From an uncultured Lachnospiraceae bacterium (lineage in GTDB: Bacteria; Bacillota; Clostridia; Lachnospirales; Lachnospiraceae): DNA of 64,000 nt. Shown one piece after another: positions 12,843 through 40,286 of the stretch (its first letter is position 1; each line of letters begins with the position of its first letter). The notes below the pieces were generated by a model. That model saw nothing but the letters and a program-made list of their open reading frames with translations, was not told the DNA's origin and ran no database searches. The translations under genes and the position numbers were made by a program. The DNA is taken from the NCBI GenBank assembly GCA_910588295.1, contig CAJUQO010000009.1, positions 8,261 through 72,260 of the forward strand. Reading direction: 5' to 3'.

Positions 12843-12874
12843 GACTGCCATGTATCCCATGGCAGTCTTTTTTT
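12843..12874 (+). terminator. rho-independent terminator after rplA
   Basis: GACTGCCATG-tatcc-CATGGCAGTC (10-bp stem) followed by T7. It abuts the stop codon of the convergent XRE gene. Confidence 0.75.
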
Positions 12875-13109: not shown

Positions 13110-13154
13110 TCCCTTTTCTCCTTTGTGGTTTGCAAACACTATGTGATCTTATAG

Positions 13155-13185
13155 TTGACAAACCTAGTGTATTAAATATAATACA
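13155..13185 (+). promoter_or_regulatory. putative promoter with overlapping palindromic operator
   Basis: TTGACA (13155-13160), 16 nt, TATAAT (13177-13182). The inverted repeat TGTATTA-aata-TAATACA (13168-13185) covers the -10 box. Confidence 0.45.
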
Positions 13186-13241
13186 TTAATATAAGCTCCA
13201 GAAAGTCTTGTCAGACTTCTTGTACATAAGGGAGGGAAAAG

Positions 13242-13421
13242 ATGTATAATAGATATAAAATGGGTTTTTCAAACCCCATAACGACCCAGGAAGAATTTAA
13301 TGAGCGGGTGAACGGTTTTATGGACAGGGGGGAGGAGGAGGCCCTTTTGGCCCTGTTGGAACAGTACCCGGATTTTATGGTACGGTATGCCGTGGAGCTG
13401 GAGAAGGAGCTGGGACTGTAG
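13242..13421 (+). CDS. small hypothetical protein (59 aa, below the track cutoff)
   Basis: ATG 13242 lies 5 nt after AAGGGAGGG. Translation MYNRYKMGFSNPITTQEEFNERVNGFMDRGEEEALLALLEQYPDFMVRYAVELEKELGL, ending in TAG at 13419-13421. Divergent from the XRE gene and downstream of the promoter above. Confidence 0.4.
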   Translation: MYNRYKMGFSNPITTQEEFNERVNGFMDRGEEEALLALLEQYPDFMVRYAVELEKELGL

Positions 13422-13511
13422 CGGAAAAGGGCCTTATGATTTTTTCACATTTCCATACTTTTCTTTTGCGGGGAGCAGGAGTATACTAGACATCGTGAGG
13501 AGGTATAGGAA

Positions 13512-16226: not shown

Positions 16227-19200
16227 ATGGAGAAAAACAGAATACGTCCGATTACCTCGGGAAAAGGCATGCGGATGAGTTACCAGAGACAAAAGGAAGT
16301 TTTGGAAATGCCCAACCTGATTGAGGTCCAGAAAGATTCCTACAACTGGTTCCTGACCGATGGGTTGAGGGAAGTTTTTGACGACATCTCACCGATCACG
16401 GATTACAGCGGCAAACTGAGCCTGGAATTTGTGGATTTTGCACTCTGCGAGGATGAAGTGAAATATTCCATCGAGGAGTGCAAGGAGCGGGATACCACCT
16501 ATGCGGCGCCCCTGAAGGTGAAGGTGCGGCTGTATAACAGGGAGAACGATGAGATCAATGAGCATGAGATTTTCATGGGCGATCTGCCTCTGATGACGGC
16601 CACCGGCACTTTTGTGATCAACGGCGCGGAGCGTGTCATTGTCAGCCAGCTGGTTCGTTCCCCCGGTATTTACTATGCGATTTCCCACGATAAATTAGGT
16701 AAGGAGCTGTACTCCTGTACGGTGATTCCCAACAGGGGCGCGTGGCTGGAGTATGAGACGGACTCCAACGACGTATTTTATGTTCGTGTGGACCGTACCA
16801 GGAAGGTGCCCATCACGGTGCTGATCCGTGCCCTGGGCTACGGCACTAACCAGGAGATCCTGGATCTGTTCGGCGAGGAACCCAAGATCCTGGCCAGTTT
16901 TTCCAAGGATACGGCGGCCAGCTACCAGGAGGGTCTCCTTGAGCTGTACAAAAAGATCCGTCCCGGCGAGCCCCTGGCAGTAGAGAGCGCGGAGAGCCTG
17001 ATTATGTCCATGTTCTTTGATCCGCGCCGCTATGACCTGGCCAAAGTGGGTCGTTACAAATTTAATAAGAAACTTCTTCTCAGAAACCGCATTACCGGCC
17101 ATGTGCTGGCGGAGGATGTGGTGGATCAGACGACAGGGGAGATTCTGGCCGAGGCAGGGACAAAGGTGACACAGGAGATGGCGGATGCTATCCAGAACGC
17201 GGCTGTTCCCAGCGTATGGATCCAGACGGAGACCAGAAACGTCAAGGTTCTGTCCAGCATGATGGTGGATCTGCGCTCCTTTGTGGATGTGGATCCCGCG
17301 GAGGTGGGCGTGACGGAGCTGGTGTACTACCCGGTGCTGTCCCGGATCCTGTCTGAGAATACGGAGATGGAGGATATCAAGGAGGCGATCCGCCGTGATA
17401 TCCATGACCTGATCCCGAAGCACGTGACCAAGGAAGACATTCTGGCTTCCATCAACTATAATATGCACCTGGAGTACCATCTGGGCAACGATGACGATAT
17501 CGACCATTTGGGCAACCGGCGTATCCGCGCCGTAGGCGAGCTTTTGCAGAACCAGTACCGCATCGGCCTTTCCCGGCTGGAGCGTGTGGTGCGCGAGCGT
17601 ATGACCACCCAGGATATCGAGGGAATTTCGCCCCAGTCGCTGATTAATATCAAGCCGGTGACGGCGGCGGTGAAGGAGTTTTTCGGTTCCTCCCAGTTGT
17701 CGCAGTTCATGGATCAGAACAACCCCCTGGGTGAGCTGACCCATAAGAGGCGTCTTTCTGCCCTGGGCCCCGGCGGCCTGTCCCGTGACCGGGCCGGGTT
17801 TGAGGTGCGTGACGTCCACTATTCCCATTACGGGAGGATGTGCCCCATTGAGACTCCTGAGGGCCCCAACATTGGTTTGATCAATTCCCTGGCGTCTTAT
17901 GCCCGGATCAATCAGTACGGGTTTGTGGAGGCGCCTTACCGGAAAATCGACCGGACCGATCCGAAGAATCCCAGGGTCACCGACGAGGTGGTATATATGA
18001 CCGCCGACGAGGAGGACAATTACCATGTGGCCCAGGCTAATGAGCCCCTGGATGCGGAGGGACATTTCATAAGGAAAAATGTATCTGGCCGTTATATGGA
18101 TGAGACCCAGGAATACGAGAAGAGTATGTTTGAATTTATGGACGTATCCCCGAAGATGGTGTTCTCTGTGGCTACGGCCCTGATTCCGTTCTTGCAGAAC
18201 GATGATGCCAACCGTGCGCTGATGGGTTCCAACATGCAGCGTCAGGCCGTGCCGCTGATGATCACCGAGGCTCCGGTGGTGGGAACGGGCATGGAGGCAA
18301 AGACTGCCGTAGACTCCGGCGTGTGCGTGGTGGCAAAGAAGGCGGGTACGGTTCTGCGCTCCACCTCCCGGGAGATCACGGTCAAATATGACGATGACGG
18401 CAAGGTGGAGAATTACCGCCTGACCAAATTCATGCGCAGTAACCAGAGTAACTGTTACAATCAGAAACCCATTGTGTTTAAAGGCGACCATGTGGAGGCC
18501 GGCGAGGTGATCGCCGACGGCCCGTCAACCTTTGACGGCGAGCTGGCCCTGGGCAAGAATCCCCTGATCGGATTCATGACCTGGGAGGGCTACAACTATG
18601 AGGACGCGGTTCTCTTAAGCGAGCGTCTGGTACAGGAAGATGTATATACTTCCATTCATATAGAAGAATACGAGGCCGAGGCCAGGGATACCAAGCTGGG
18701 ACCGGAGGAGATCACGAAGGATGTGCCCGGCGTGGGCGACGAGGCCCTGAAGGATCTGGATGAGAGAGGTATCATCCGTATCGGCGCCGAGGTGCGCGCC
18801 GGTGATATACTGGTGGGCAAGGTGACGCCCAAGGGCGAGACGGAGCTGACCGCCGAGGAGCGTCTGCTGCGCGCCATCTTCGGTGAGAAGGCCCGGGAAG
18901 TCCGTGACACCTCCCTGAAGGTGCCCCACGGCGAGTACGGTATCGTCGTGGACGCGAAAGTATTCACCAGGGATCACGGCGACGAGCTGTCTCCCGGTGT
19001 CAACCAGTCGGTGCGTATTTATATCGCCCAGAAGAGAAAGATCTCCGTGGGCGACAAGATGGCCGGCCGTCACGGTAACAAGGGTGTGGTTTCCCGCGTG
19101 CTTCCCATGGAGGATATGCCGTTTTTGCCCAACGGGCGTCCGCTGGACATCGTGCTGAATCCCCTGGGTGTGCCTTCCCGAATGAATATCGGGCAGGTGC

Positions 19201-20066
19201 TGGAGATCCATCTGAGCCTGGCCGCCAAGGCTCTGGGCTTTAATATCGCCACGCCGGTGTTTGACGGCGCCAACGAGGTGGATATCCAGGATACCCTGGA
19301 GTTGGCCAATGATTATGTCAATCTGTCCTGGGATGAGTTCTCCGAGAAACACAGGGAAGAGCTGGTTCCGGAAGTATATGAATATCTGGATGAGCATAAA
19401 GACCATCGCAAATTATGGAAAGGTGTGCCGATCTCCCGGGACGGCAAGGTGCTCCTGCGGGACGGCCGGACCGGCGAATTTTTCGACAGCCCCACCACCA
19501 TCGGCCACATGCATTATCTGAAACTGCATCATCTGGTGGACGACAAGATCCATGCCCGTTCCACCGGCCCGTACTCTTTGGTTACGCAGCAGCCCCTGGG
19601 CGGCAAGGCTCAGTTTGGCGGCCAGCGTTTCGGTGAAATGGAGGTGTGGGCCCTGGAGGCGTACGGCGCGTCCTACACCCTGCAGGAGATCCTGACAGTG
19701 AAGTCCGACGATGTGATCGGACGTGTCAAGACCTACGAGGCCATCATTAAGGGAGACAATATTCCCGAGCCGGGTATCCCCGAGTCCTTCAAGGTTATGC
19801 TCAAGGAGCTGCAGTCTTTGGGCCTGGATATCAAGGTGCTCAAGGATGACAATACGGAAGTACAGATCATGGAGACCAGCGATTACGGCGATACGGATCT
19901 GCGCTCGATCATTGAGGGCGACAGGAGTTACCGCAGAGAGGAGGAATCCTTCGGCGACTACGGCTTTAGCAAACAGGAGTTTGAGGGAGAGGAGCTAAAG
20001 GATGTGGAAGAGCCTGAGGAAGAGCCCGCGTATGCCGCTCTGGACGACGTTCTGGATGAAGAGTAG
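16227..20066 (+). CDS. rpoB: DNA-directed RNA polymerase subunit beta
   Basis: 1279 aa and collinear with bacterial beta (..[24 protein letters not shown].., ..[10 protein letters not shown].., ..[13 protein letters not shown]..). Acidic C-terminal tail. Confidence 0.97.
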
Positions 20067-20077
20067 GAGGGATAGTA

Positions 20078-23998
<3,921 letters not shown>

Positions 23999-24009
23999 CA
24001 AATAGAAAA

Positions 24010-24051
24010 AGACCTGCTGCCCGTACACAAGCGGGACGGCGGGTCTTTTTT
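24010..24051 (+). terminator. rho-independent terminator after rpoC
   Basis: GACC..CCCG-tacacaa-GCGGG..GGTC imperfect GC-rich hairpin followed by T6. Confidence 0.7.
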
Positions 24052-24116
24052 ATATCCGGACAAACAAAACGGCCGGGACGTGTGTGACCATTTTCAGAAC
24101 AAAAATAAAAAAACCC

Positions 24117-24145
24117 TTGCATATGTAAACAAAAGTGGTTATACT
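24117..24145 (+). promoter_or_regulatory. putative promoter of the kinase operon
   Basis: TTGCAT (24117-24122), 17 nt, TATACT (24140-24145). It leaves a roughly 135-nt 5' UTR. Confidence 0.5.
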
Positions 24146-24285
24146 AAAGATATCATTTATCTATTGTCTATTCGACAAATGTTTCCCATTTATTAAAAGT
24201 GAATATGATAATGGCCTTTAGAGTCGGCGCGGGCTGGCATGCGTTATGTCTGCCATAGCCAAGAGGGCTGTTTGGAGGGATTGCG

Positions 24286-26097
24286 ATGCTGGAAATAGGA
24301 ACTGTAGTGGACGGCAAATATAAGATCCTCAGTAAAGTAGGGCAGGGCGGCATGAGCGTCGTGTATCTGGCGCTGAATGAACGGGCCAATAAGACATGGG
24401 CCATCAAAGAGGTGCGGAAGGACGGAGTGCGGGATTTTGCCACGGTGAAACAAAGAGTGGTCGCGGAGATAGAGATTTTAAAGGGGCTGAACCATACATA
24501 TCTGCCCTGCATCATCGATATCCTTGATGATGACGACACGTTTATCATTGTTATGGATTATATAGAGGGCCGGGCGCTGGATGTGGTACTGCGGGAGAAT
24601 CTATCGGAGAAGCATCTTCCCGTTGCCGCGGAAGACGTGATTGCCTGGGGCGTTCAGCTCTGTGAGGTACTGCGCTACCTTCATACCAGGGAACCCCCCA
24701 TTGTTTACCGGGATATGAAACCGTCCAATATTATGCTTAAACCGGACGGGAAGATTTGTTTAATAGATTTCGGTACGGCCAGAATATTTAAAAAGGGCAA
24801 TTCCGACGATACTACCTGCCTGGGCACACCCGGTTATGCGGCGCCGGAGCAGTACGGAGGGAACGGCCAGTCCAGTCCTCGGAGTGATATCTACTGCCTG
24901 GGCGCTACCCTGCATCATCTGATCACCGGGCGTAATCCGGCAGCCACTCCTTTTCATTTTCCGCCGATTACCCAGTGCCGTCCTTCGCTTTTGGAAGAGA
25001 CGCCGAAGGAATTAAGAAATGCGCTGCGGGGACTGGAAATAATCATTGGAACATGTACCCGGTACAGGGAAGAGGAGCGTTACCAAAATTGTGCTCAGCT
25101 GCAGTATGCCCTGGAGCATCCGGAAAAGCTGGGATTTTCGTACAGAAGGAAATTAAAAAGAAAACTGCTGGCTTTTTCTGCCAGCACCGGTATGGGACTG
25201 CTCATGGGGATTAGTTCGCTGGCCGGCGCCGTTCTGGCCGGGCAGGAAAAGGCTACGGGTTTTGATTACTATATGGAGAGCGCTTCGACGGCGGCAGATC
25301 AGGATAAACTGGGGTTATATCGAAAGGCCATAGCCCTTAAGCCCCGGCGGGAGGAGGGATGGCTGGGAATGCTGGAGACGGTGGGTGCGGATGACAGGTT
25401 TACCGCAGAGGAGGACGGCTGCATTCTTTCTCTTTTGAGCTCCAGGGATAACGGCAGGAGCCAGGATAATAAAACTATCTTTCGAAAGAATGAAGCCGGA
25501 TATGTCCGTTTTGCCTATAATCTGGGGATGCTGTACTACTATGCGGAAGGCAGAGGGCATAATAAGGCGTCCGCCGGCGGCTGGTTTGACGTTGTCTGTC
25601 AGGCGGATCTGTCAAGTCTGGATCTGGGTGCGGATAATGATAAAAAATCGGCCTGGAAAGCCCGTGCGGAGACATTGGGTAAAATCAGCGGCTACAACAG
25701 CAGGATTGGGAAGACTAATCTGGCAGGTGACGCGCAGACTACGTATCTTGATTACTGGAACGACCTAAAGAGCCTTGTGGACGACAATATTGCCGGTCAG
25801 GATAATGTGGTCACGGAGCTGCGGCTGTATAACGAGATTGCCTACCAGGTCTGTACCCATTGTGATGCCTTTTGCGAAGCCGGAGTGACCGGGGAGGATA
25901 TGACACGGGCCCTGGCCGATATGGAAAGTCTTGTTCGGGGATTGCATACTGCGGATAATCCGGTGGCGGAGGGTCTGGAAAAAGAGATTCTAAAAGTGGT
26001 CGAGCTGGGTAGAAAACAGGTAGCGGCTGTTTTCGCAGCTAATGCACGGATAGGAACCGTTGGGGATATCGTGATGAAAGGAGACGAGACGGGATGA
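24286..26097 (+). CDS. transmembrane Hanks-type Ser/Thr protein kinase with non-PASTA extracellular domain
   Basis: 603 aa. GQGGMSVVY (G-loop), WAIKEV (VAIK Lys), YRDMKPSNIM (catalytic loop, Tyr in place of the HRD His), DFGTA, GTPGYAAPEQ. One TM (LLAFSASTGMGLLMGISSLAGAVLAG). A roughly 280-aa helical C-terminal ectodomain has no PASTA repeats that I can see. Confidence 0.9.
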   Translation: MLEIGTVVDGKYKILSKVGQGGMSVVYLALNERANKTWAIKEVRKDGVRDFATVKQRVVAEIEILKGLNHTYLPCIIDILDDDDTFIIVMDYIEGRALDVVLRENLSEKHLPVAAEDVIAWGVQLCEVLRYLHTREPPIVYRDMKPSNIMLKPDGKICLIDFGTARIFKKGNSDDTTCLGTPGYAAPEQYGGNGQSSPRSDIYCLGATLHHLITGRNPAATPFHFPPITQCRPSLLEETPKELRNALRGLEIIIGTCTRYREEERYQNCAQLQYALEHPEKLGFSYRRKLKRKLLAFSASTGMGLLMGISSLAGAVLAGQEKATGFDYYMESASTAADQDKLGLYRKAIALKPRREEGWLGMLETVGADDRFTAEEDGCILSLLSSRDNGRSQDNKTIFRKNEAGYVRFAYNLGMLYYYAEGRGHNKASAGGWFDVVCQADLSSLDLGADNDKKSAWKARAETLGKISGYNSRIGKTNLAGDAQTTYLDYWNDLKSLVDDNIAGQDNVVTELRLYNEIAYQVCTHCDAFCEAGVTGEDMTRALADMESLVRGLHTADNPVAEGLEKEILKVVELGRKQVAAVFAANARIGTVGDIVMKGDETG

Positions 26098-26540
26098 CGG
26101 AAGCATCAATAATACAAAATTTTGAAAGGCGCTGCTGTTTATATGAAAAAATCTGCCTGTACTGCGGTGTAGCGGCCGTCATTTTCCTGCTGTTGTCCAT
26201 GATCTTTTTTTTGGCCTTACATATTCCGCAGGTGTTTGGGGAGTTCACGGGGCGGACGGCCCGCAGGGCAGTACGGCGCATGACAGACGGCAGCAGGCGA
26301 AGGTACAGGCCCGTAACGGGAGAAAGAGAAGCCGGGTCACGTTCCCGCCGGGAACAGGGCGGCAGAAATGACGCGCCGTCTGGTCTGGCGTTCCAGGGCG
26401 ATACCATGGCGTCCCATACCATGCAGAGGGCGTCGGCTTTTTTTACGGCTGAGACAGCCGCGCTGCCGCAGGAGGAGCCGGAGACAGCCGCGCTGCCGTT
26501 GGGGGAGACGGAAACGATTGTGCCGAAAGGAAGAAGATAA
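26094..26540 (+). CDS. small bitopic membrane protein with Arg/Pro-rich tail
   Basis: 148 aa, with an ATGA overlap onto the kinase stop. One TM (ICLYCGVAAVIFLLLSMIFFLALHI). Basic stretch RTARRAVRRMTDGSRRRYRP and a repeated ETAALP(Q/L) unit. I recognise no family. Confidence 0.6.
   Translation: MTEASIIQNFERRCCLYEKICLYCGVAAVIFLLLSMIFFLALHIPQVFGEFTGRTARRAVRRMTDGSRRRYRPVTGEREAGSRSRREQGGRNDAPSGLAFQGDTMASHTMQRASAFFTAETAALPQEEPETAALPLGETETIVPKGRR
26451..26498 (+). repeat. 30-bp-period direct repeat inside the small membrane-protein gene
   Basis: GAGACAGCCGCGCTGCCG occurs at 26451-26468 and again at 26481-26498. Confidence 0.6.
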
Positions 26541-26625
26541 TGCCATAAAAAGTATGAGGGAAGCGGAAAGAGGGGACGGCCTTAAAGAACGCTGAGGAAA
26601 TTCATGTGGACGAGGTAAAGGAAAT

Positions 26626-29600
26626 ATGAAAAAGGAGAAGAAACTGGGGATAAAAAGAATACCGGCTTTTTTGCTGGCTATGGCACTGGCCTTTTTTGCG
26701 TGTCTGCCGCTCAATTTGTACAGCATGATGGCGGCAGAGAGTGGTGCGGAGGACATAAGGATCAAAGCAGAATTATCCGAAGACGCAGGCTCTTCCGGAG
26801 AAGAGAGTAATAACGAAACTGAAAAGGACGAAGCCAGTGATGGAGAGAGGAAGAACGGGAAGGTTATATTTTCAGGAGCGTATACGGAGCAGGCTCCTTT
26901 GACGTTGGTATACGGGACAGTGGGGGCGGCAGAAGTTTTTTCTCTTCGGTGTGAGGATGAAAGGCTTCCGGATGAAGTATTACCTGACGTTTCGGTTTTA
27001 GTGGGGGATAAAAGTGTGCTGGGTGTTGCCGTAGATCCGGAGAATAGAACGGTCACATTTACACCCCGAAAAGTTTCCGGGGAGCCGACAAGAGTGGAAC
27101 TGTCCATGGAGACGGAACATTACAGCTTTAAGGGCGCTATTTATATAAAAGTGCTTCCTCTCCCGCTGGCCATTGATACCGGCAGCATCACTGTCAGCGC
27201 GCCGGGAAAGGGGAGCTATACGAACTCAAAGATCTATGATGCCGATGACAGCGTGGACGTCAGAGCTACCTTGAAAACGTCGGGAGAATTTTCTGTGACG
27301 GCTCAAACAGAGCAGGAGGTGAAACAGTATTTTACCGATGTGGTTTTCTATAATTATGCCAGCGGCCTGGTAAATGTGCAGGGGGAAAATGGGACGCAGT
27401 CTTTTTGCTTTGCGCCAGGGGATCTGTCTTTATGTACAGATATCGCAGACGTGTCAGTCAGAAACAGCTATACCGTTATAGCTGATGAAAAAGCAGCGGA
27501 TATTCCTCTGATTATTAAAAAGAGAATACTGTCTTTGGCCGTCGCGGACAGCGAGAGGCCGTTTAGAAGTCTCGCCTATACAAAGCCATTGCGGACGCTG
27601 GTTGATGTAGAAGCGGGCGGAGAAGATACGGGGTTTGTGGGGAAGGATTGCGCAGAAATGGAGGGGTTTTCTTTTCCCATGGTTATAGATACCACAGCAA
27701 AGGGACTGACAGAGAAGAATGTCAGAACAGAAGATACGGCAGTTTACGGTGCGCATGGGGAAGGGCTGATACTGGATACTGCTACTGGAAATGCCACGGG
27801 CAATTATGCGTTTGATCTGCGGAATTATACCAGGGGCACACTGGCCATATCAGAAGAAATAGACGCCGAAGATTACGTGACGATAGATAGAACGTCCAGC
27901 GTCCGCGTATGTGAAATAGCCAGAGACGGAAGACAGGTTTGCTGTTTTGGCCGGGATGCGCGGATTCGGTTTGCCTTGGGCGGCGGTTACAATAAGATCT
28001 ATCTGGCCGACGGTACGGATGTCACAGGCACGGGGATTGCGGGCCCTGTTCCCGCCGCCGATATTTCAGGCGGCGTCAATGAACTGAGTTTTTACCTTAC
28101 CAGAGAGGAGCCCGTGGCTGCGGGAACAGTCAGAGCCAAGACGAAGCCTTTCCGCCTTTATTTCGTTTACGACCAGGACGCGCCGGACTGTACAAAAATG
28201 GTTTTTGGCGTGAAAAACAGAGTCATTTCTGACCTGGCTTCCGTGATCACTTTCGGGATTTATGATAATAAGCAGATGGTAGCCGATGTATCCTTTGATG
28301 ATGCCGTGGCCGGAGTAAACAGCTGGTCCTATTTTATAGCGGCAACGGACAGGGACGGTACATATGAAGAGCTTTTGGAAAACGCCGTGTTTCAGGCAGG
28401 GACGGCGGATGGGAGGATTCCGGTGGGCACGTTGGCGGGCGGGCAGCCGCCGGGAGAAGGGAATAATTATGTTGTATTTGTCAAAGTGACGGATCGTGTG
28501 GGGAACTCCGGCATCTATGGGTCCAATGGCATTGTACTGGAGAATTTCCGTGACATTTCCGTCAGCTATAGGGAAAGAGCGGCAGGGGAAGCCGAGTCTG
28601 CAGGAACATGGAATGGTATTACATATTATTCCGGTGATGCCGTACTGACTCTGAAAGCGGAAGAAAACGCCGGCGAGAGCGGCTATTATTCCGGGCTCAA
28701 AAATATGGCGTATGTGGTTACCAGACATTCCGGCGACGGAAAGATCGTGACAGATCGGGAAAAAACAATTGTAACGAAAAATACAGAGGATCACGCCGTT
28801 TTACCTGCGTTTCCCGGAGAGGTTACACTGGCCGGGCTGAGGGAATACTGTGTGATCACAAAGACATTGGAATTTGCCAATAATCCGCAAAAATCCCAGA
28901 TTATTACCGTCAGTGCAGAAGCCGGAGATCATGCGGGCAATATCATGGGGAAGCCTTCGCGGCATACGATTGTGCTGGATTCGATCTGCCCGGAGGTCAC
29001 GTCTTCTTGTACGCAGGCCAATCACCACGGGGCATTTTTGAACGGATCTTACGCTAACAGCGGGGTAACGTATACCGTTACCGTCAGGGAGCGCTTTTTG
29101 CAGAAGCTGAAAGTGCATATCAATGACATGTCCTGCACGCTGGCCGAGCTGGAAGCAAAAAAGGATTCTCTGGGTATTTCATCCGTCACAAAGGACGCGG
29201 AGGCAGATATTTCACAGTCGACGGACGAGACGGTATATCATTTCAGCATTACCTTTACGGCAGACGGCGAGTATACATTACAGACGACAGCCGTGGATGC
29301 AGCCGGTAACAGTGGTCATGATTCCCCTTTTTATTTTGTGATCGATACGGTGCGGCCCAAACTGGAACTTACCTATACGGCTGTTCATACGGACGGCACG
29401 CGGATGGTTCTGGATCTGTCCAAAGACCGTGTGTTTGCGGGCGGAGATGTCTCCCATGTAACGGTATCAGCTGTGGTGACAGAGCGCAATTTTGCTCCCG
29501 GAGAGGCAGAACTTATAGTCAGAGCCACAGACAGCCGGGGCAGAGAAGTTCGGGTGGCCGATTACGATGCGGCTATCCGCAGCGGCTGGATAAATAAAGG

Positions 29601-32172
29601 CTGTGTCAGTGGCGCGGACAACCGTTATATCTACGGACTGACGCTGCCGCCGATTTGCGTAGACGCCAACTACGATTTTACTTACAGATGCACGGATCTG
29701 GCGGGCAATGAGCTGGAAGCCGTACTGACACATACCTTCACGCTGGACCGCGCCAAACCCACGGGCGCTGTGACGGCTGAAGAACTCGTAAACGGCGCCC
29801 GGATCATGACATGGGAAAAGCTGCTTCATGTCATGACTTTTGGATTTTTCGGCAAAAACCGCGTCAGGGTTTCCCTGGCAGCCGCGGATGAGACCGCCGG
29901 CGTGGCTTCTGTCTGGTACCTGGCGTCCGAAACCTTCCTGAGCAAACGTGACCTGGAGAAAAGAACGGACTGGCTGAAATATAAAAACAAGAAGACTTTC
30001 AGATCGGACAGGTATCTGGTCGTGTATGGAAAGATTATTGACAAAGCCGGTAATATCAGGTACATCAGCACGGATGGCATTATTGTGGATGATAGGGCGC
30101 CGGAACCGGCGATAGTGATTACGCCGACAAAGCCGGACTGGGGTAAAGGGATATACAGTGCGGCAGATCATCCCGGATTTGAGGTGTCCGTTACGGATCC
30201 GCCGGTTAAAGGGGTATATGCGGGACTGAAAAAAATCACATACAAGATTGTCAACAAAACGAATGGATATACGGAGACAGGCACTCTTGCGGAACTGAAA
30301 AAAGCGGCGCACAGACAGACATGGACGGGTCATGTCAGGATCAATCCGTCCGGATTCTATTCTAATGACGTCCGTATCATGGTATCAGCCGAGGACTGGT
30401 CAGGCAACGACGCCGTATCTAAAGAAATCAGCGTGAGGATGGACAATAAGGCTCCGGTGGTCAGGTTTTCTTTCGACGAAAGTGATGCACAGAACGGCAG
30501 TTATTACCGGACTGATAAGAAACTGACAATCACGGTGGAGGAGAGAAACTTTGACGCGTCTTACGCTCCGGAAGTGACATCTTCGGCGGGAGGCGGCTAC
30601 AGGATCGGCCCATGGATGCACCGGGGGGAGAGCCATACGGCGGTTCTGGCCTTCACGGAAGACGGTGATTATACTGTGAGCTATCGATGTTATGACCTGG
30701 CGGGCAACAGATCTAATACAGAAGTGCTTCGGACATTTACCGTGGATAAAACGGCGCCGGCTTTTCAGGTGGCCTATGATAATCATGATGTTCAGAATGA
30801 CAGCTACTACAGGGCCGCGAGAACGGCCACGATTACAGTCACGGAACATAATTTTGACCCGGCAAAGATTGTGGTGAAGACGACGGCTTCATCGGGCGGC
30901 GTACCAGAGATCAGCGGCTGGTCCGGTTCCGGCGATATCCATACGGCAAAGATCAGCTTTTCCCATGATGCCGGCTATACGTTCAGCGTCAGCGGTACGG
31001 ATCTGGCGGGCAACCGGTCGGCCGGAATCTTGCCGGAAAAATTTACGGTTGACCTGACGGCGCCGGAGATTACATTTGAGGGCATAAAAGATCGATCGGC
31101 TAACAATGGAGTCGTGGCGCCCGTGATTAGGATTCGGGATGCCAATTTTCTGGCCGATAGTACGGAAGTAACGCTGACAGGTGCGGGCCGCAAAGAACAG
31201 AACGTGGATAAGATGGCAACGGTCAGCCCGGATGCCTTCGGTATGGAAGTTCGATTTAAGAATTTTGCGGGGGGTATGGACGATATTTATACACTGAATT
31301 GTAAGTCTGTGGATAAAGCGGGCAACGAGAGTGTGGCGGCCATCCGTTTTTCCGTAAACCGTGAGGGGTCTGCCTACGAGTTGGATAAAACCACACAGAC
31401 GTTGCTGGATCGGGGATATGCCAGCCGGCCGCAGGATATCATTGTTACGGAAATCAACGTGAACGAGTTAAAATTCATTGAACTTAGCTGCAGCCGGGAC
31501 GGCGGAATCACCGTTCTGAGAGAGGGCACAGATTATACCGTGGAAAAGAGTGGTCGGGAAGAACAGTGGAAAAGGTATATTTACCGGATCCGCAGGGCAT
31601 GTTTTGAGGCGGAGGGGACATATGCCGTCAATATGTACTCCGAGGATGCGGCCCATAACAGGGCCTCCAATAAGTCTAAGGCAAAGACACTGGAATTTAC
31701 GATAGATAAGACCGCTCCCACTATGGCCGTGGCCAATCTGGAGGACGGCGGCCGTTATAAAGAGGAGAGCCATTTCTTCACGCTACATGTAAAGGATAAT
31801 TTCTTTTTGGATTATGTGGAGGTCTGGCTGGACGGTGAGCTGATGCACACTTACAGAGGCGATGAACTAACGGCGGCGGAGGGAGAGATCCGTCTGGCTG
31901 TCGGCAGCCGCCGCCGTTATCAGACGATTTCGCTGGTATCCGTTGATAAGGCGGGCAATGTCGGCAGAAAGGCCTATGACCCGGTGACCCACGGACAAAC
32001 AGACGCGTCCTACAGAGTACTGGTTACTGCCGACGGTTTCGTACAATTTGTAAATAATGTGCCGTTACTGACAGGGATAGCGCTGTCTGCCGCCGCCGTG
32101 ATCCTGTTGGTTGTGCTGGCCGGAAAACGGAGGCGCAACAAGAAATGGAAAGAGAGAAAAATTTCCCCTTGA
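26626..32172 (+). CDS. giant cell-surface protein with about 11 Ig/HYR-like repeat modules and a C-terminal membrane anchor
   Basis: 1848 aa. Signal peptide (KRIPAFLLAMALAFFACLPLNLYSMMAAES). Recurring D-x-(A/S/V)-G-N motif (VTDRVGN, AGDHAGN, AVDAAGN, CTDLAGN, IIDKAGN, AEDWSGN, CYDLAGN, GTDLAGN, SVDKAGN x2, variant SEDAAHN), usually followed by (I/V/L/M)D-x-x-x-P. C-terminal TM plus a basic tail (IALSAAAVILLVVLAGKRRRNKKWKERK). No LPXTG motif. Confidence 0.85.
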   Translation: MKKEKKLGIKRIPAFLLAMALAFFACLPLNLYSMMAAESGAEDIRIKAELSEDAGSSGEESNNETEKDEASDGERKNGKVIFSGAYTEQAPLTLVYGTVGAAEVFSLRCEDERLPDEVLPDVSVLVGDKSVLGVAVDPENRTVTFTPRKVSGEPTRVELSMETEHYSFKGAIYIKVLPLPLAIDTGSITVSAPGKGSYTNSKIYDADDSVDVRATLKTSGEFSVTAQTEQEVKQYFTDVVFYNYASGLVNVQGENGTQSFCFAPGDLSLCTDIADVSVRNSYTVIADEKAADIPLIIKKRILSLAVADSERPFRSLAYTKPLRTLVDVEAGGEDTGFVGKDCAEMEGFSFPMVIDTTAKGLTEKNVRTEDTAVYGAHGEGLILDTATGNATGNYAFDLRNYTRGTLAISEEIDAEDYVTIDRTSSVRVCEIARDGRQVCCFGRDARIRFALGGGYNKIYLADGTDVTGTGIAGPVPAADISGGVNELSFYLTREEPVAAGTVRAKTKPFRLYFVYDQDAPDCTKMVFGVKNRVISDLASVITFGIYDNKQMVADVSFDDAVAGVNSWSYFIAATDRDGTYEELLENAVFQAGTADGRIPVGTLAGGQPPGEGNNYVVFVKVTDRVGNSGIYGSNGIVLENFRDISVSYRERAAGEAESAGTWNGITYYSGDAVLTLKAEENAGESGYYSGLKNMAYVVTRHSGDGKIVTDREKTIVTKNTEDHAVLPAFPGEVTLAGLREYCVITKTLEFANNPQKSQIITVSAEAGDHAGNIMGKPSRHTIVLDSICPEVTSSCTQANHHGAFLNGSYANSGVTYTVTVRERFLQKLKVHINDMSCTLAELEAKKDSLGISSVTKDAEADISQSTDETVYHFSITFTADGEYTLQTTAVDAAGNSGHDSPFYFVIDTVRPKLELTYTAVHTDGTRMVLDLSKDRVFAGGDVSHVTVSAVVTERNFAPGEAELIVRATDSRGREVRVADYDAAIRSGWINKGCVSGADNRYIYGLTLPPICVDANYDFTYRCTDLAGNELEAVLTHTFTLDRAKPTGAVTAEELVNGARIMTWEKLLHVMTFGFFGKNRVRVSLAAADETAGVASVWYLASETFLSKRDLEKRTDWLKYKNKKTFRSDRYLVVYGKIIDKAGNIRYISTDGIIVDDRAPEPAIVITPTKPDWGKGIYSAADHPGFEVSVTDPPVKGVYAGLKKITYKIVNKTNGYTETGTLAELKKAAHRQTWTGHVRINPSGFYSNDVRIMVSAEDWSGNDAVSKEISVRMDNKAPVVRFSFDESDAQNGSYYRTDKKLTITVEERNFDASYAPEVTSSAGGGYRIGPWMHRGESHTAVLAFTEDGDYTVSYRCYDLAGNRSNTEVLRTFTVDKTAPAFQVAYDNHDVQNDSYYRAARTATITVTEHNFDPAKIVVKTTASSGGVPEISGWSGSGDIHTAKISFSHDAGYTFSVSGTDLAGNRSAGILPEKFTVDLTAPEITFEGIKDRSANNGVVAPVIRIRDANFLADSTEVTLTGAGRKEQNVDKMATVSPDAFGMEVRFKNFAGGMDDIYTLNCKSVDKAGNESVAAIRFSVNREGSAYELDKTTQTLLDRGYASRPQDIIVTEINVNELKFIELSCSRDGGITVLREGTDYTVEKSGREEQWKRYIYRIRRACFEAEGTYAVNMYSEDAAHNRASNKSKAKTLEFTIDKTAPTMAVANLEDGGRYKEESHFFTLHVKDNFFLDYVEVWLDGELMHTYRGDELTAAEGEIRLAVGSRRRYQTISLVSVDKAGNVGRKAYDPVTHGQTDASYRVLVTADGFVQFVNNVPLLTGIALSAAAVILLVVLAGKRRRNKKWKERKISP

Positions 32173-32197
32173 CAGCCATACAAACTGAACGTATAAT
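32169..32197 (+). promoter_or_regulatory. putative str-operon (rpsL) promoter
   Basis: TTGACA (32169-32174, overlapping the TGA stop of the giant gene), 17 nt, TATAAT (32192-32197). Confidence 0.6.
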
Positions 32198-32290
32198 AAC
32201 CCATGCGTGCACAAAACAGGCAGTTATTTTTGTGTGCGTTTGACGAAGAAAAATAGCAACCGCAGAGAACTTTTACAGGAGGTGAAAGGA

Positions 32291-32707
32291 ATGCCCACAT
32301 TTAATCAGTTAGTAAGAAAGGGACGCCAGACATCAGTAAAGAAGTCCAACGCTCCGGCTCTTCAGAAAAGCTTCAACTCTCTGAGGAAAAAAACTACGGA
32401 TATGTCCTCTCCCCAGAAGAGGGGCGTATGCACGGCAGTTAAGACGGCAACTCCTAAAAAGCCGAATTCAGCGCTCAGAAAGATCGCCAGGGTTCGTCTT
32501 TCTAACGGAATCGAGGTTACATCCTACATTCCGGGTGAGGGCCACAATCTGCAGGAGCACAGTGTTGTGCTGATCCGCGGCGGCCGTGTTAAAGATTTAC
32601 CTGGTACGAGATACCACATTATCAGAGGTACTCTGGATACGGCAGGTGTTGCAAACCGGAAACAGGCCCGTTCCAAATACGGCGCCAAGAGGCCCAAAAA
32701 GAAATAA
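32291..32707 (+). CDS. rpsL: 30S ribosomal protein S12
   Basis: [13 protein letters not shown]...[63 protein letters not shown]. Start trimmed to ATG 32291. Confidence 0.95.
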
Positions 32708-38347: not shown

Positions 38348-39556
38348 TTGGTGGGCGCTTTAGAATATAAACAATACAGCAAATATTGTGAAAACAGGGA
38401 TGTAATTTCTCTGTTTTCAGGTGCTATGGGGCTGGATCTTGGGCTGATCAAAGCGGGACTCCGTGTCGTGATCGGACAGGACTTTGATGCTTTCTGTGTA
38501 AAGACAATGCAGGCGAACGGCTATGAAGTGCTGGAGGGAGATATCAGAGCGATCGGGCCGCAGCAGGTATTGGATTATGTGGGACTGCATGTAGGTGAAC
38601 CTTTTATGATCTGTGGGGGACCGCCCTGCCAGCCCTTTTCGACGGCGGGAAAGAGACTGGGGATTAACGATCCAAGAGGCAGCCTGTTTATGGATTTTAT
38701 CCGAATGATCGATTATATTCGGCCCAGATTTTTTGTGATGGAGAACGTAAAGGGAATCATGTCTGCACCGTTGAAACATGTGCCTTTGACGGAAAGGGAT
38801 GAGAAAGATCCCGAGCAGCACCTGGGGACGGTTCTGGATGTGATCTTGTCAGAGTTTGACAAGTTAGGGTATAAGACTGTTTATGGCGTACTGGATGCTG
38901 TCAATTATGGTGTGCCGCAATTTAGAGAACGATTTGTATTGGTTGGAAGCAGAGACAAGGAAGAAATTTTTCTACCGATACCAACACATTTTTCCATGCA
39001 TCAGAATCAGGAATATCAGTGGCAGACCGTACGGAGTGCAATAAAAAGCTTGGAATTTGACAATGGAGAATGTGCCGCGTTTAGCGAGGATCGCTTAAAA
39101 TTTCTTAAAATGGTTCCGGAGGGCGGGAACTGGAGGGATTTACCACAGGAAATCGTTCCAATGGCTATGGGCGGTGCTTATACGTCTGGGGGCGGTAAGG
39201 TGGGGTTTTACAGAAGGCTTTCTTATGACCAGCCTTCGCCGACCGTGGTGACGTCTCCGGTGCAGAAAGCCACGATGATGTGCCATCCTACCCAGGACAG
39301 ACCCTTGAGTGTGAAAGAATATGCCAGGATCCAGCAATTTCCGGATGAATGGGTGTTTACTGGGACGACCGCGGCGAAGTACAGGCAGATCGGTAATGCG
39401 GTTCCGGTCGGAATGGCGGAAGCCATAGGAAAAGCAGTCATAGCTACTGCCAATAAGTCAGCAGTGGTTGCGACAAAAAGATTCAGAGGAACCAATGTAC
39501 ATAACCGAATTAAAAATGCGATAGAGCTAGGGGGGAACAGGCTTGGCGTTAAATAA
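38348..39556 (+). CDS. DNA (cytosine-5)-methyltransferase
   Basis: Motif I FSGAMGLDLG, IV GGPPCQPFS, VI ENVKG, VIII QFRERF, X GNAVPV. The start is TTG 38348 or GTG 38351 (RBS GGAGAG 38337-38342). Confidence 0.9.
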   Translation: MVGALEYKQYSKYCENRDVISLFSGAMGLDLGLIKAGLRVVIGQDFDAFCVKTMQANGYEVLEGDIRAIGPQQVLDYVGLHVGEPFMICGGPPCQPFSTAGKRLGINDPRGSLFMDFIRMIDYIRPRFFVMENVKGIMSAPLKHVPLTERDEKDPEQHLGTVLDVILSEFDKLGYKTVYGVLDAVNYGVPQFRERFVLVGSRDKEEIFLPIPTHFSMHQNQEYQWQTVRSAIKSLEFDNGECAAFSEDRLKFLKMVPEGGNWRDLPQEIVPMAMGGAYTSGGGKVGFYRRLSYDQPSPTVVTSPVQKATMMCHPTQDRPLSVKEYARIQQFPDEWVFTGTTAAKYRQIGNAVPVGMAEAIGKAVIATANKSAVVATKRFRGTNVHNRIKNAIELGGNRLGVK

Positions 39557-40286
39557 TTCCTATGATGAACAGGCAGTTATTCGGGCAATAGCGTCTGCGT
39601 TGGACACGTTTTATGAAATATTAATCGAGAAGATTGATGGACTGAACATACAGAAGATCATGAAGCGGAAAAATCCATATCTGTATCGGGCAAAGGCCAT
39701 GGAGAGCGCGGCGGAGATAGTGGAATCTGTGTTGACAGCTTTTGTCAGCTCCAGTGAGGAAACGATATTTGGGAATTGTTTTTTTGAACCGATTGCCCTT
39801 GCGGCAAGTGGCGGAAATAAGGCTTTGGCAGAAGGTATTGACATTATGATTCATAATAAAGAGTCAAATACCATTTCCGCTATTGCGGTTAAGAGCGGGC
39901 CATCCGTATTTAACGCCGATAGTAAAAAGCGGCAAGAGCAGAATTTTATGGCAGCTTCTAAACTGGCTCAACAGGTGAAAGCAAGATATGAAGCATATAT
40001 CGGTTACTGTTATGGAAAAAAGAAAGAGACGGGGCGGGGAAGACCCAAAATGTATCAGGAACTCGCCGGAAAGAGGTTTTGGGCGGAGCTGACAGGCGAT
40101 GATGAGTTTTACGTAAAGATCATCGGGTACATGGGTACGATGCCGGAACAGTATGTGGCAGGCTATAAGGAAAGCTATCATAAGGCGGCTAACCGGCTGG
40201 TGAGGGAATTTTCCAATAGCTTTTGCAGGGAAGACGGGAGTATTGACTGGGAAAAACTGGTGGAGTTCAATTCGGGAGATTCGTGA
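39543..40286 (+). CDS. putative type II restriction endonuclease (family not assigned)
   Basis: 247 aa. It overlaps the MTase stop by 14 nt (TTG start, uncertain), has no TM and has an islet-like AT-rich composition. A possible nuclease core is GID(100)-x14-AVK(117), but this is weak. The call rests mainly on context. Confidence 0.5.
   Translation: MALNNSYDEQAVIRAIASALDTFYEILIEKIDGLNIQKIMKRKNPYLYRAKAMESAAEIVESVLTAFVSSSEETIFGNCFFEPIALAASGGNKALAEGIDIMIHNKESNTISAIAVKSGPSVFNADSKKRQEQNFMAASKLAQQVKARYEAYIGYCYGKKKETGRGRPKMYQELAGKRFWAELTGDDEFYVKIIGYMGTMPEQYVAGYKESYHKAANRLVREFSNSFCREDGSIDWEKLVEFNSGDS

What the first reader, a model, noticed from the sequence alone, without database searches (positions are those of the whole stretch)
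24052..32172. An 8-kb kinase / small membrane protein / giant Ig-repeat surface protein operon sits between rpoC and rpsL
In most bacteria I know, rpoBC is followed directly (or after one small gene) by rpsL-rpsG-fusA-tuf. Here a strong rpoC terminator (24010-24051) is followed by a separate promoter (24117-24145) and three co-oriented genes. They are a transmembrane Hanks kinase without PASTA domains, a 148-aa bitopic Arg/Pro-rich protein coupled to it by an ATGA overlap, and a 1848-aa signal-peptide protein built from about 11 Ig/HYR-like modules with a C-terminal TM anchor. I see no terminator between the giant gene and rpsL. The rpsL -35 box overlaps its stop codon, so the module can read through into the str operon. 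Composition looks like the flanks, which argues for an old lineage-specific insertion rather than a recent island. An eSTK physically coupled to a giant adhesin-like protein at one of the most highly transcribed loci suggests an envelope-sensing or surface-display system. I cannot match it to any described system.
Basis: partly seen in the sequence, partly recalled or inferred. Interest (0 to 1): 0.7.

Follow-up and report, generated by a model that had tools for sequence, protein, structure and literature searches.

The report
Orphan secretion-system kinase and Ig-stalk module
The three genes between rpoC and rpsL are a relocated, trimmed copy of a kinase, small membrane protein and giant Ig-repeat protein set that in related gut bacteria belongs to Tad-pilus or type VII secretion gene clusters, so it is an unusual variant of a recently described kind and not an unknown system.

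Summary
[quoted passage not shown] The giant gene's stop codon lies inside a perfect rpsL -35 box.

The trio is not an unknown system. Its kinase ectodomain defines a Lachnospiraceae family (274 clusters at 50% identity; 65 species loci). In that family the kinase, small protein and giant protein travel together, usually behind a PP2C phosphatase and often with FHA proteins. They sit next to a Tad/Flp pilus locus, next to an EssC/YukD/WXG100 type VII locus, or alone.

The architecture matches TsxD/TsxH/TsxI (plus TseF and TseJ) of T7SSd/T7SSe, described by Garrett et al. 2024.

The window's copy is derived. One relocation placed it in the spacer between the ancestral rpoC terminator and rpsL promoter. 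It lost the PP2C, the second small protein, the FHA/Tad genes and the small protein's conserved C-terminal Thr motif. All three genes stay under purifying selection (dN/dS 0.14-0.38).

In relatives the same spacer holds unrelated cargo. I rate it a new variant of a known kind, of moderate interest.

The parts
20078..23998 (+). rpoC (context, left flank)
   Evidence: TIGR02386 equivalog, 1785 bits
24005..24051 (+). Intrinsic terminator of rpoC. It is ancestral: relatives with adjacent rpoC and rpsL have one in the same place.
   Evidence: dG -32 kcal/mol, z -7.1, U-run; equivalent hairpins in L089, L103, L104, L105 and L109
24108..24145 (+). Promoter-like block of the trio: an A-tract, -35 TTGCAT (24117-24122), a 17-nt spacer and -10 TATACT (24140-24145)
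   Evidence: Identical in the window, L022 and L023 although the flanks diverge. Only 8/12 to consensus, so it was not listed by the scan.
24164..24178 (+). Conserved inverted repeat TTGTC-N5-GACAA in the leader; a candidate operator
   Evidence: Conserved in the window, L022 and L023. Its function is inferred only.
24286..26097 (+). TsxD-like membrane Ser/Thr kinase: Hanks kinase domain (aa 1-280), a long helix with a TM segment (about aa 297-320), and a TPR-like all-helical extracytoplasmic domain (aa 321-603)
   Evidence: Pfam Pkinase E 3e-44. Catalytic K41, D143, K145, N148 and DFG 161-163 are invariant in 45 homologues. AF2 model pLDDT 87. Ectodomain model pLDDT 88, pTM 0.83. One TPR unit is detected by profile. 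dN/dS 0.14-0.16.
26094..26540 (+). TsxH-like small single-pass protein (148 aa): short N-terminus, TM segment within about aa 14-50, conserved juxtamembrane motif IPQVFGEFTGR, and a disordered Arg/Ala/Thr/Gly-rich tail. It lacks the family's C-terminal ...RSIVEIHTDEVI motif.
   Evidence: Homologous to the small proteins of relatives. The motif is absent only in PP2C-less loci. dN/dS 0.29-0.38. ATGA overlap.
26626..32172 (+). TsxI-like giant envelope protein (1848 aa): signal peptide, about 10-11 Ig-like (Big_3/Big_13/OmpL47-type) modules, a C-terminal TM helix and a basic tail. The membrane-proximal ~650 aa are conserved and the distal N-terminal part is variable.
   Evidence: Weak PDB hit to SiiE BIg domains. 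dN/dS 0.20-0.22.
32169..32197 (+). Ancestral rpsL promoter (TTGACA-17-TATAAT); its -35 box contains the giant gene's stop codon
   Evidence: 12/12 match. An equivalent promoter is found in 6 of the 7 relatives without the insertion that were examined (not L091).
32291..32707 (+). rpsL (context, right flank)
   Evidence: TIGR00981 equivalog, 219 bits

Best explanation
The trio is a relocated and trimmed copy of a conserved Lachnospiraceae envelope module. The module consists of a membrane Hanks kinase with a TPR-like ectodomain (TsxD-like), a small single-pass protein (TsxH-like) and a giant Sec-exported, C-terminally anchored Ig-repeat protein (TsxI-like).

In relatives this module follows a PP2C phosphatase and is built into Tad/Flp-pilus or EssC-type (T7SSe-like) secretion clusters that also encode FHA-domain phosphothreonine readers.

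In the window's lineage a single event moved only kinase, small protein and giant protein into the neutral spacer between the rpoC terminator and the rpsL promoter. The trio acquired its own promoter. A ~440-nt internal deletion removed the small protein's C-terminal Thr motif and the second small membrane protein.

Inferred mechanism: the three proteins form a membrane complex. The giant protein's conserved membrane-proximal modules and the small protein's TM segment dock on the kinase ectodomain and TM helix. The variable distal Ig modules contact the cell wall or an external ligand. The catalytically intact kinase converts that input into Ser/Thr phosphorylation of cytoplasmic targets. Because the locus-encoded phosphatase, FHA readers and tail motif are gone, the output in this lineage must go to other substrates or to a machine encoded elsewhere.

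Shown: homology, synteny, the derived state of the window copy, purifying selection and the transcription signals. Inferred: complex formation, sensing and the phospho-targets.
For: Family and synteny:
- The kinase ectodomain defines a family of 274 clusters at 50% identity, always C-terminal to a kinase domain and TM segment.
- In 65 species-level loci, essentially all Lachnospiraceae, a PP2C is adjacent in 53, a giant Ig protein is present in 53 and a small1 homologue in 41.
- Context look-ups show PP2C-kinase-small-giant at unrelated chromosomal sites.

Linkage to machines:
- A full Tad/Flp locus lies directly downstream in the window's closest PP2C-bearing relatives.
- In Pseudobutyrivibrio and Butyrivibrio the neighbours are DUF6382-FHA, a TadZ-like ATPase, YukD, EssC (TIGR03928, 1204 bits against a cutoff of 778) and WXG100.

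Architecture: matches the published TsdD/TseD, TsdH/TseH, TsdI/TseI, TseF and TseJ (PMC11217815).

Derived state of the window copy:
- No PP2C, FHA, Tad, EssC or small2 anywhere in the 64 kb.
- DNA homology to relatives begins at the kinase start codon, and an internal deletion is visible.
- The window, L022 and L023 kinases are monophyletic (75/100), sister to the PP2C/Tad-linked L020, inside a clade with 100/100 support.
- The small-protein C-terminal motif is present in most PP2C-bearing loci and absent in 5 of 5 PP2C-less close relatives.

Still functional: dN/dS 0.14-0.38; catalytic residues intact; conserved promoter block.

Giant protein: conserved base, variable tip.
Against: - No direct sequence comparison with the published TseD/H/I proteins was possible, because only accession numbers are available. 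The match rests on architecture, plus the fact that the same kinase family occurs in EssC/YukD/WXG100 loci.
- Only 64 kb of the genome is visible, so partner genes may exist elsewhere.
- Complex formation, ligand sensing and kinase substrates are untested.
- The motif Thr is not strictly invariant (L020 has HADEVI, L042 has HAKD), which weakens the idea that it is the phospho-acceptor.
- The kinase TM segment is only moderately hydrophobic, so the topology relies on the AF2 helix and on analogy.
- The ectodomain has no significant structural neighbour, so its ligand is unknown.
Confidence: 0.6

Rival explanations
1. Split system. The trio still serves as integral parts (envelope conduit and regulator) of a Tad pilus or T7SS whose ATPase, pilin or WXG100, PP2C and FHA genes are encoded elsewhere in the same genome. 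Only the gene order has changed.
For: In every well-covered close relative that keeps a PP2C, the module is contiguous with Tad genes or T7SS genes. Purifying selection on all three genes fits a retained machine role. Garrett et al. treat TsxD/H/I as core T7SSd/e parts.
Against: The window clade has lost exactly the elements that would couple the module to a phospho-dependent machine: the PP2C, the small protein's C-terminal motif and small2. Many species have PP2C-kinase-small-giant with no secretion genes within 10 kb. None of the partner genes is found in the 64 kb. The look-up on a TadZ homologue at the expected identity recovered only genomes with the full contiguous cluster.
Confidence: 0.25
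2. One reading: a previously undescribed, self-contained adhesin-plus-sensor operon whose placement at the rpoBC/str junction is functionally meaningful, through coupling to highly expressed genes.
For: The trio has its own promoter, there is no terminator before rpsL, and the stop codon overlaps the -35 box. The arrangement is conserved in the window and L022; L023 shares the leader and the downstream rpsL, with its contig ending before rpoC.
Against: The architecture is already described as TsxD/H/I. The trio sits in the spacer between an ancestral strong terminator and an ancestral consensus promoter. The same spacer holds unrelated cargo in other relatives: an unrelated kinase with a PP2C, a cation-efflux gene with a GT2, a GGDEF-EAL protein, and YARHG proteins. 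Most family members lie at other loci.
Confidence: 0.06
3. A decaying remnant of a secretion-system cluster, with no remaining function.
For: Several partner genes have been lost and the small protein has lost its conserved C-terminal motif.
Against: All three ORFs are intact in at least three species and in 10 or more independent assemblies. dN/dS is 0.14-0.38 at dS 0.4-1.2. The catalytic residues are conserved and so is the promoter block.
Confidence: 0.03
4. A kinase-based anti-phage defence system, with the giant surface protein acting as a phage decoy or sensor.
For: The kinase hits the PADLOC models mad6 and PD-T4-6. An RM system lies in the same window.
Against: The PADLOC hits cover only the generic kinase domain (aa 1-280). 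The small and giant proteins have no defence-model hits. The family's conserved neighbours are secretion and pilus genes, not defence islands.
Confidence: 0.03

Closest known systems
T7SSe / T7SSd components TseD/TsdD (kinase), TseH/TsdH (small 1-TM protein) and TseI/TsdI (giant Ig protein with signal peptide and C-terminal TM) - Garrett, Higginson & Palmer 2024, Microlife 5:uqae013 (PMC11217815)
   Same: The three-protein architecture and topology are the same: an active membrane Hanks kinase with a helical extracytoplasmic C-terminus, a small single-TM protein with a disordered cytoplasmic tail, and a protein of about 1.6-1.8 k aa with a Sec signal, Ig-like domains and a C-terminal TM helix. 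Members of the same kinase family in Pseudobutyrivibrio and Butyrivibrio sit with PP2C (TseF-like), DUF6382-FHA (TseJ-like), YukD (TseB), EssC with an FHA domain (TseC) and WXG100 (TseA).
   Different: The window copy has no EssC, WXG100, YukD, PP2C or FHA protein within 64 kb. Its nearest PP2C-bearing relatives are joined to a Tad/Flp pilus locus, not to EssC. The Lachnospiraceae clusters carry extra recurrent genes that are not in the published parts list: a trypsin-TM-FHA fusion, an XRE-HTH protein of about 480 aa, a 4-TM small2, a TadZ-like ATPase and a second TPR kinase. The paper's held text does not mention Lachnospiraceae. Direct sequence homology to the published proteins could not be tested.
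Tad/Flp (type IVc) pilus loci of Lachnospiraceae (TadZ-TadA-TadB-TadC-Flp-TadE/G-like-prepilin peptidase; E. rectale TadZ structure, Xu et al. 2012, cited in PMC11217815)
   Same: In the window's closest PP2C-bearing relatives the kinase-small-giant genes are contiguous and co-oriented with FHA-DUF2752-TadZ-TadA-TadB-TadC-Flp1-DUF5702-Peptidase_A24.
   Different: None of the Tad genes is present in the window. I found no published description of a kinase, PP2C or giant-Ig module as part of Tad loci in the held library.
T6SS threonine-phosphorylation pathway (PpkA kinase / PppA PP2C / Fha; Agrobacterium TssL-Fha) - analogy cited by Garrett et al.
   Same: In the relatives the logic is the same: a membrane Hanks kinase with an extracytoplasmic sensor domain, a PP2C antagonist and FHA readers beside a secretion ATPase.
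   Different: The proteins and machines are different. The window copy lacks the phosphatase and the FHA reader, so the switch logic cannot operate from this locus.
PASTA kinases PknB / PrkC / StkP / IreK
   Same: A Hanks kinase domain, a single TM segment and an extracytoplasmic sensor. The kinase domain scores 158 bits on NF033483.
   Different: No PASTA repeats; the score is far below the cutoff of 450. The ectodomain is an all-alpha TPR-like solenoid. The gene neighbourhood is different.
Giant BIg-repeat adhesins (e.g. Salmonella SiiE) and the T7SSb envelope protein EsaA/YueB
   Same: A long array of bacterial Ig-like modules (weak PDB hit to SiiE BIg domains). An envelope-spanning role analogous to EsaA has been proposed for TsdI.
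   Different: The protein is anchored by a C-terminal TM helix and has no LPXTG motif. It is not a T1SS substrate, and it shows no sequence similarity to EsaA.

Membership tests
T7SSe-type secretion locus (Garrett et al. 2024) | [quoted passage not shown] | tested here: not met
   Absent from the 64-kb window (tblastn; gene calls). Present in the family members L083, L084, L071 and L077 (TIGR03928, 1204 bits against a cutoff of 778).
T7SSe-type secretion locus (Garrett et al. 2024) | TseA1/A2 WXG100 proteins and the TseB YukD-like protein | tested here: not met
   None in the window. YukD and WXG100 are present in the Butyrivibrio and Pseudobutyrivibrio relatives.
T7SSe-type secretion locus (Garrett et al. 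2024) | TseD: membrane Ser/Thr kinase with a conserved active site and a helical extracytoplasmic C-terminal domain | tested here: met
T7SSe-type secretion locus (Garrett et al. 2024) | TseH: small protein with one TM helix and a short unstructured cytoplasmic region | tested here: met
   148 aa, one hydrophobic segment within aa 14-50, low-complexity Arg/Ala/Thr/Gly-rich tail. The C-terminal motif typical of the Lachnospiraceae family is missing.
T7SSe-type secretion locus (Garrett et al. 2024) | TseI: large protein with a Sec signal peptide, Ig-like domains and a C-terminal TM helix | tested here: met
T7SSe-type secretion locus (Garrett et al. 2024) | TseF PPM/PP2C phosphatase and TseJ DUF6382-FHA protein at the locus | tested here: not met
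   No PP2C or FHA in the window. PP2C is adjacent in 53 of 65 relatives. DUF6382-FHA is present in L077.
T7SSe-type secretion locus (Garrett et al. 2024) | Sequence homology of the kinase, small and giant proteins to the published TseD/H/I (or TsdD/H/I) proteins | not testable with these tools
   The paper and its supplements give only accession numbers. The link is indirect: the same ectodomain family occurs in EssC-containing loci.
Tad/Flp pilus locus | TadZ, TadA (T2SSE), TadB/C (T2SSF), Flp pilin and an A24 prepilin peptidase | tested here: not met
   Absent from the window. Present directly downstream of the module in L020, L021, L169 and L171-L175.
Hanks-type (eukaryote-like) Ser/Thr kinase | Catalytic Lys (VAIK), the HRD-loop Asp/Lys/Asn, DFG and APE motifs | tested here: met
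   K41, D143, K145, N148, D161-F162-G163 and P187-E188 are invariant in 45 homologues including the window protein. The HRD motif reads YRD.
PASTA kinase (PknB/PrkC/Stk1) | Extracellular PASTA repeats | tested here: not met
   NF033483 scores 158 bits against a cutoff of 450 and aligns only with aa 4-278. The ectodomain is all-helical.
Sortase-anchored (LPXTG) adhesin | An LPXTG motif before the C-terminal hydrophobic segment | tested here: not met
   The C-terminus reads ...NNVPLLTGIALSAAAVILLVVLAGKRRRNKK. The relatives have N.PLF[FW]G with no Thr.
Known anti-phage defence systems (PADLOC) | Matches beyond a generic domain, for more than one component | tested here: not met
   Only kinase-domain hits. 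The small and giant proteins have none.

The most novel reading that the evidence does not exclude
The kinase / small TM protein / giant Ig-stalk set may not be a T7SS-specific 'core' at all. It may be a portable, machine-independent envelope signalling device, an 'Ig-antenna kinase', that Lachnospiraceae plug into Tad pili, into T7SS, or run alone. The window's clade would then be the extreme case: the set is kept under purifying selection with no phosphatase, no FHA reader, no phospho-tail motif and no secretion ATPase nearby. That would imply a kinase output, or a purely structural surface role, that is independent of any secretion machine.
Probability: 0.35. Interest if true: 0.65.

Novelty: new variant of a known kind. 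Interest (0 to 1): 0.5.

Why it matters
The TsxD/H/I proteins have so far been described only by bioinformatics, as parts of novel type VII secretion variants, and nobody knows what they do. This window and its relatives show three things.

1. The same module is widespread in gut and rumen Lachnospiraceae. Cultured strains carrying it include Catenibacillus scindens, Butyrivibrio fibrisolvens and Pseudobutyrivibrio species.
2. The module is attached to Tad pili as well as to T7SS, and it often stands alone.
3. It can survive under selection after being stripped to three genes.

Together these give natural 'deletion series' for working out which partners the kinase and the Ig stalk actually need. 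They also point to a conserved C-terminal Thr motif in the small protein as a candidate phospho-switch. The placement next to rpsL is best read as use of a permissive inter-operon spacer, not as a regulatory novelty.

Tried and rejected
- Foldseek of the ectodomain model against the PDB gave no significant neighbour; the hits were only generic TPR, 14-3-3 and BamD-like solenoids (E > 0.1, TM <= 0.42). The ligand therefore cannot be inferred.
- Pfam and NCBIfam give no hit for the small protein.
It was repeated with five closer sequences.
- I tried to find the window organism's own Tad locus through a TadZ homologue at the expected identity (P0274). It turned out to belong to another species with the full contiguous cluster. 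Whether partner genes exist elsewhere in this genome remains open.
- The kinase plus PP2C in L090, at the same rpoC-rpsL gap, looked like a possible remnant of the same insertion. It shares only the catalytic domain (29% identity), so I rejected it as independent cargo.
- The defence-system idea was rejected on the PADLOC result.
- The paper's supplement lists only accession numbers, so the taxonomy of published T7SSe loci and direct sequence comparison could not be obtained. The E. rectale TadZ paper is not held.
- The 2090-aa ORF at the window's end is not a paralogue of the giant protein; it has only a Flg_new repeat hit.

Full report
**Observation.** The region is as described. rpoB (16227-20066) and rpoC (20078-23998) are followed by three co-oriented ORFs and then rpsL (32291-32707). 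The three ORFs are a 603-aa protein (24286-26097), a 148-aa protein (26094-26540) and a 1848-aa protein (26626-32172).
- The first protein has a Pkinase domain (E 3e-44) and no PASTA repeats. The PASTA-kinase model aligns only with aa 4-278 and scores 158 bits against a cutoff of 450.
- The kinase stop and the small-protein start overlap as ATGA.
- The giant protein carries Big_3_3, Big_13 and OmpL47-type Ig-like domains. It has ten regularly spaced D-x-x-G-N module signatures, an N-terminal signal-like segment and a C-terminal TM helix with a basic tail.
- The rpoC terminator is strong (dG -32 kcal/mol, z = -7.1).
- A 12/12 consensus promoter (32169-32197) has the giant gene's stop codon inside its -35 box, and no terminator-like site precedes rpsL.
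- The proposed promoter of the trio (24117-24145) matches the consensus at only 8 of 12 positions. It lies in a block that is identical in the three species sharing this arrangement, while the neighbouring sequence diverges.

**The trio is a conserved unit, and part of something larger.**
- Identical copies occur in several MAGs and many read-set assemblies with the same rpoC...rpsL context.
- Full-length kinase orthologues at 57-75% identity lie at unrelated chromosomal sites. They are always followed by a small protein and a giant Big-domain protein, and usually preceded by a PP2C phosphatase.
- The kinase's extracytoplasmic domain (aa 321-603) defines a distinct family. It has 274 clusters at 50% identity among 1.8 billion proteins, almost always at residues ~300-580 of kinase-sized proteins.
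- A scan of species-representative genomes found 65 loci, essentially all Lachnospiraceae. They include Catenibacillus scindens DSM 106146, Butyrivibrio fibrisolvens 16/4, Pseudobutyrivibrio xylanivorans and P. ruminis.
- Across these 65 loci a PP2C is adjacent in 53 and a giant protein is present in 53. A recognisable small-protein homologue is present in 41, a trypsin-like protease-TM-FHA fusion in 33 and a second 4-TM small protein in 16. An XRE-HTH protein of about 480 aa occurs in 14 and a second TPR kinase in 11. Many of the negatives are loci cut by contig ends.

**Which machines it accompanies.**
- In Butyrivibrio and Pseudobutyrivibrio the module is followed by a DUF6382-FHA protein, a TadZ/ParA-type ATPase, YukD, an EssC ATPase with an FHA domain and a WXG100 protein. 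EssC scores 1204 bits on NCBIfam TIGR03928, against a cutoff of 778. WXG100 scores above the Pfam threshold. This is a genuine type VII locus.
- In the window's closest PP2C-bearing relatives the giant gene is followed directly by DUF4234-FHA, DUF2752, TadZ, TadA, TadB, TadC, an Flp pilin, DUF5702/TadE-like proteins and an A24 prepilin peptidase. That is a complete Tad/Flp pilus locus.
- In several species, including C. scindens, PP2C-kinase-small-giant stands alone among housekeeping genes.

**Comparison with what is known.** Garrett, Higginson & Palmer (2024; PMC11217815) defined T7SSd and T7SSe by EssC neighbourhood analysis.
- Their components include a membrane Ser/Thr kinase with a helical extracytoplasmic C-terminus (TsdD/TseD).
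- They include a small protein with one TM helix and an unstructured cytoplasmic region (TsdH/TseH).
- They include a protein of about 1650 aa with a Sec signal, Ig-like domains and a C-terminal TM helix (TsdI/TseI), which the authors propose spans the envelope like EsaA.
- T7SSe additionally has a PPM phosphatase (TseF), a DUF6382-FHA protein (TseJ), TseK, YukD and two WXG100 proteins.

The window trio matches TsxD/H/I feature by feature, and its family members in Pseudobutyrivibrio have the T7SSe complement. The statement that no described system matches is therefore not correct.

Three limits apply. I could not compare sequences with the published proteins, because only accession numbers are available. 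The held text of the paper does not mention Lachnospiraceae. No other paper in the library describes the Tad-linked or solitary forms.

**How the window copy differs.**
- The 64 kb contain no PP2C, FHA, Tad, EssC, YukD, WXG100 or small2 genes.
- DNA homology to the PP2C-bearing relatives starts at the kinase start codon, so the phosphatase was left behind.
- Between the small gene and the giant gene, a deletion of about 440 nt relative to L020 removed the small protein's C-terminus and all of small2.
- Most small proteins of the family end in a conserved ...F.V.RSIVEIHT[DE]EVI motif (Butyrivibrio variant DIKITGSN..I). The motif is missing in the window, L022, L023, L025 and L018, which are the five PP2C-less loci of the close clade. 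I read this co-loss as loss of a kinase/phosphatase-controlled switch on the small protein's tail. This is an inference, and the Thr is Ala in L020 and L042.
- A neighbour-joining tree of kinases groups the window, L022 and L023 together (75/100). They are sister to the PP2C/Tad-linked L020, inside a clade with 100/100 support that is otherwise mostly PP2C-bearing. L018 and L025 lost the PP2C independently.
- The trio is not decaying. Between the window and L022 or L023, dN/dS is 0.14-0.16 for the kinase, 0.20-0.22 for the giant protein and 0.29-0.38 for the small protein, at dS 0.4-1.2. All catalytic residues are intact.

**The insertion site.** I surveyed 80 metagenome contigs with RpoC C-terminal identity of 56-84%; rpsL is visible downstream in 47.
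- 38 of the 47 gaps are 660 nt or less, five are about 1-1.2 kb, and four are 2.2-6 kb.
- About 13 further contigs show no rpsL within 6-10 kb after rpoC.
- The fillers are unrelated to each other: an unrelated Hanks kinase with a PP2C, a cation-efflux gene with a GT2 glycosyltransferase, a PAS-GGDEF-EAL protein with an M24 peptidase, and YARHG or zinc-ribbon proteins.
- Where the two genes are adjacent, the spacer consists of a terminator hairpin followed by the rpsL promoter; a TTGACA-N17-type promoter was found in 6 of the 7 spacers examined.

The window's trio therefore lies exactly between two ancestral signals, in a permissive inter-operon spacer. It is insulated from rpoBC transcription. 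Any read-through only adds to an already consensus rpsL promoter. The location does not argue for coupling to high expression.

**Structure.**
- AlphaFold models are confident: whole kinase pLDDT 87; ectodomain pLDDT 88 and pTM 0.83.
- The ectodomain is an all-alpha solenoid with one recognisable TPR unit. It has no significant PDB neighbour.
- The giant protein's membrane-proximal ~650 aa are conserved across the family, at 41-75% identity even with distant members. The N-terminal distal part is variable and shows whole-module gains and losses. This fits a conserved base that docks on membrane partners and a variable tip that meets the outside.

**Mechanism (inferred).** The kinase, the small TM protein and the Ig stalk form a membrane complex. 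Events at the stalk or ectodomain are converted into Ser/Thr phosphorylation. In relatives this is opposed by the PP2C and read by FHA proteins beside a Tad or T7SS ATPase, a logic analogous to the T6SS PpkA/PppA/Fha pathway. In the window lineage that circuitry is gone from the locus. The kinase must therefore act on other substrates or on a machine encoded elsewhere, or the complex mainly serves a surface and structural role.

**Rivals.**
- A split system working in trans. It cannot be excluded from 64 kb.
- A novel, location-dependent operon. This is disfavoured.
- A decaying remnant. This is rejected by the selection data.
- Anti-phage defence. There are only generic kinase-domain hits.

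**Verdict.** The finding is a new, reduced and relocated variant of a recently described (2024) and experimentally uncharacterised kind of module. The wider pattern (Tad-linked, T7SS-linked, solitary and stripped forms in Lachnospiraceae) is the more interesting result. It makes the function of TsxD/H/I testable in cultured gut and rumen bacteria.

Noticed in passing
window 12873-14621: A small HTH_26 gene (minus strand), a 59-aa ORF and a choline-binding polysaccharide deacetylase are inserted between rplA and rplJ. This is another insertion into the conserved ribosomal/RNAP gene string.
   Followed up: no
window 38348-40286: A DNA methylase and an EcoO109I-type restriction endonuclease (a type II RM pair) lie directly after tuf.
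   Followed up: no
window 59830-64000 (runs off the end): A 2090-aa ORF whose only hit is one Flg_new/Listeria-Bacteroides repeat. It is a second very large putative surface protein, not a paralogue of the giant Ig protein.
   Followed up: partly
window 24164-24178: A perfect inverted repeat, TTGTC-N5-GACAA, lies just downstream of the trio's -10 box and is conserved in the window, L022 and L023. It is a candidate operator for an unknown regulator. In relatives an XRE-HTH protein of about 480 aa precedes the cluster.
   Followed up: partly
L018 7125-8942 (also L019): A 605-aa bacterial protein with a eukaryote-type ubiquitin domain (PF00240, E 7e-25) occupies the position upstream of the kinase where the PP2C normally sits.
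   Followed up: no
L090 4516-8349: An unrelated Hanks kinase, a PP2C and a 409-aa protein fill the same rpoC-rpsL gap in another Lachnospiraceae-like contig. The kinase shares only the catalytic domain with the window kinase.
   Followed up: yes
L032 6487-8241; L077 6589-8190; 33 of 65 loci: A trypsin-like protease (sometimes with FIVAR), TM segment and FHA fusion protein is conserved upstream of the PP2C. It does not appear in the published T7SSe component list and could be a mycosin-like processing protease under phospho-control.
   Followed up: partly
L036 18727-20667 and 10 other loci: A second membrane kinase with TPR repeats directly follows the giant gene in 11 species-level loci.
   Followed up: no
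L077, L083, L084, L071 (about 12.2-13.2 kb in each locus): A TadZ/ParA-type ATPase sits between the DUF6382-FHA gene and YukD/EssC in the T7SS-type loci. This links Tad-like and T7SS-like parts in a single operon. The published paper notes a similar ATPase (TsfV) only for T7SSf.
   Followed up: partly
window 32173-32290 and the rpsL leaders of L091, L103, L104, L105, L109: The rpsL 5' leader contains a recurring GTGCGC...GCGCA hairpin downstream of the consensus promoter in several relatives. It may be a conserved leader structure.
   Followed up: no
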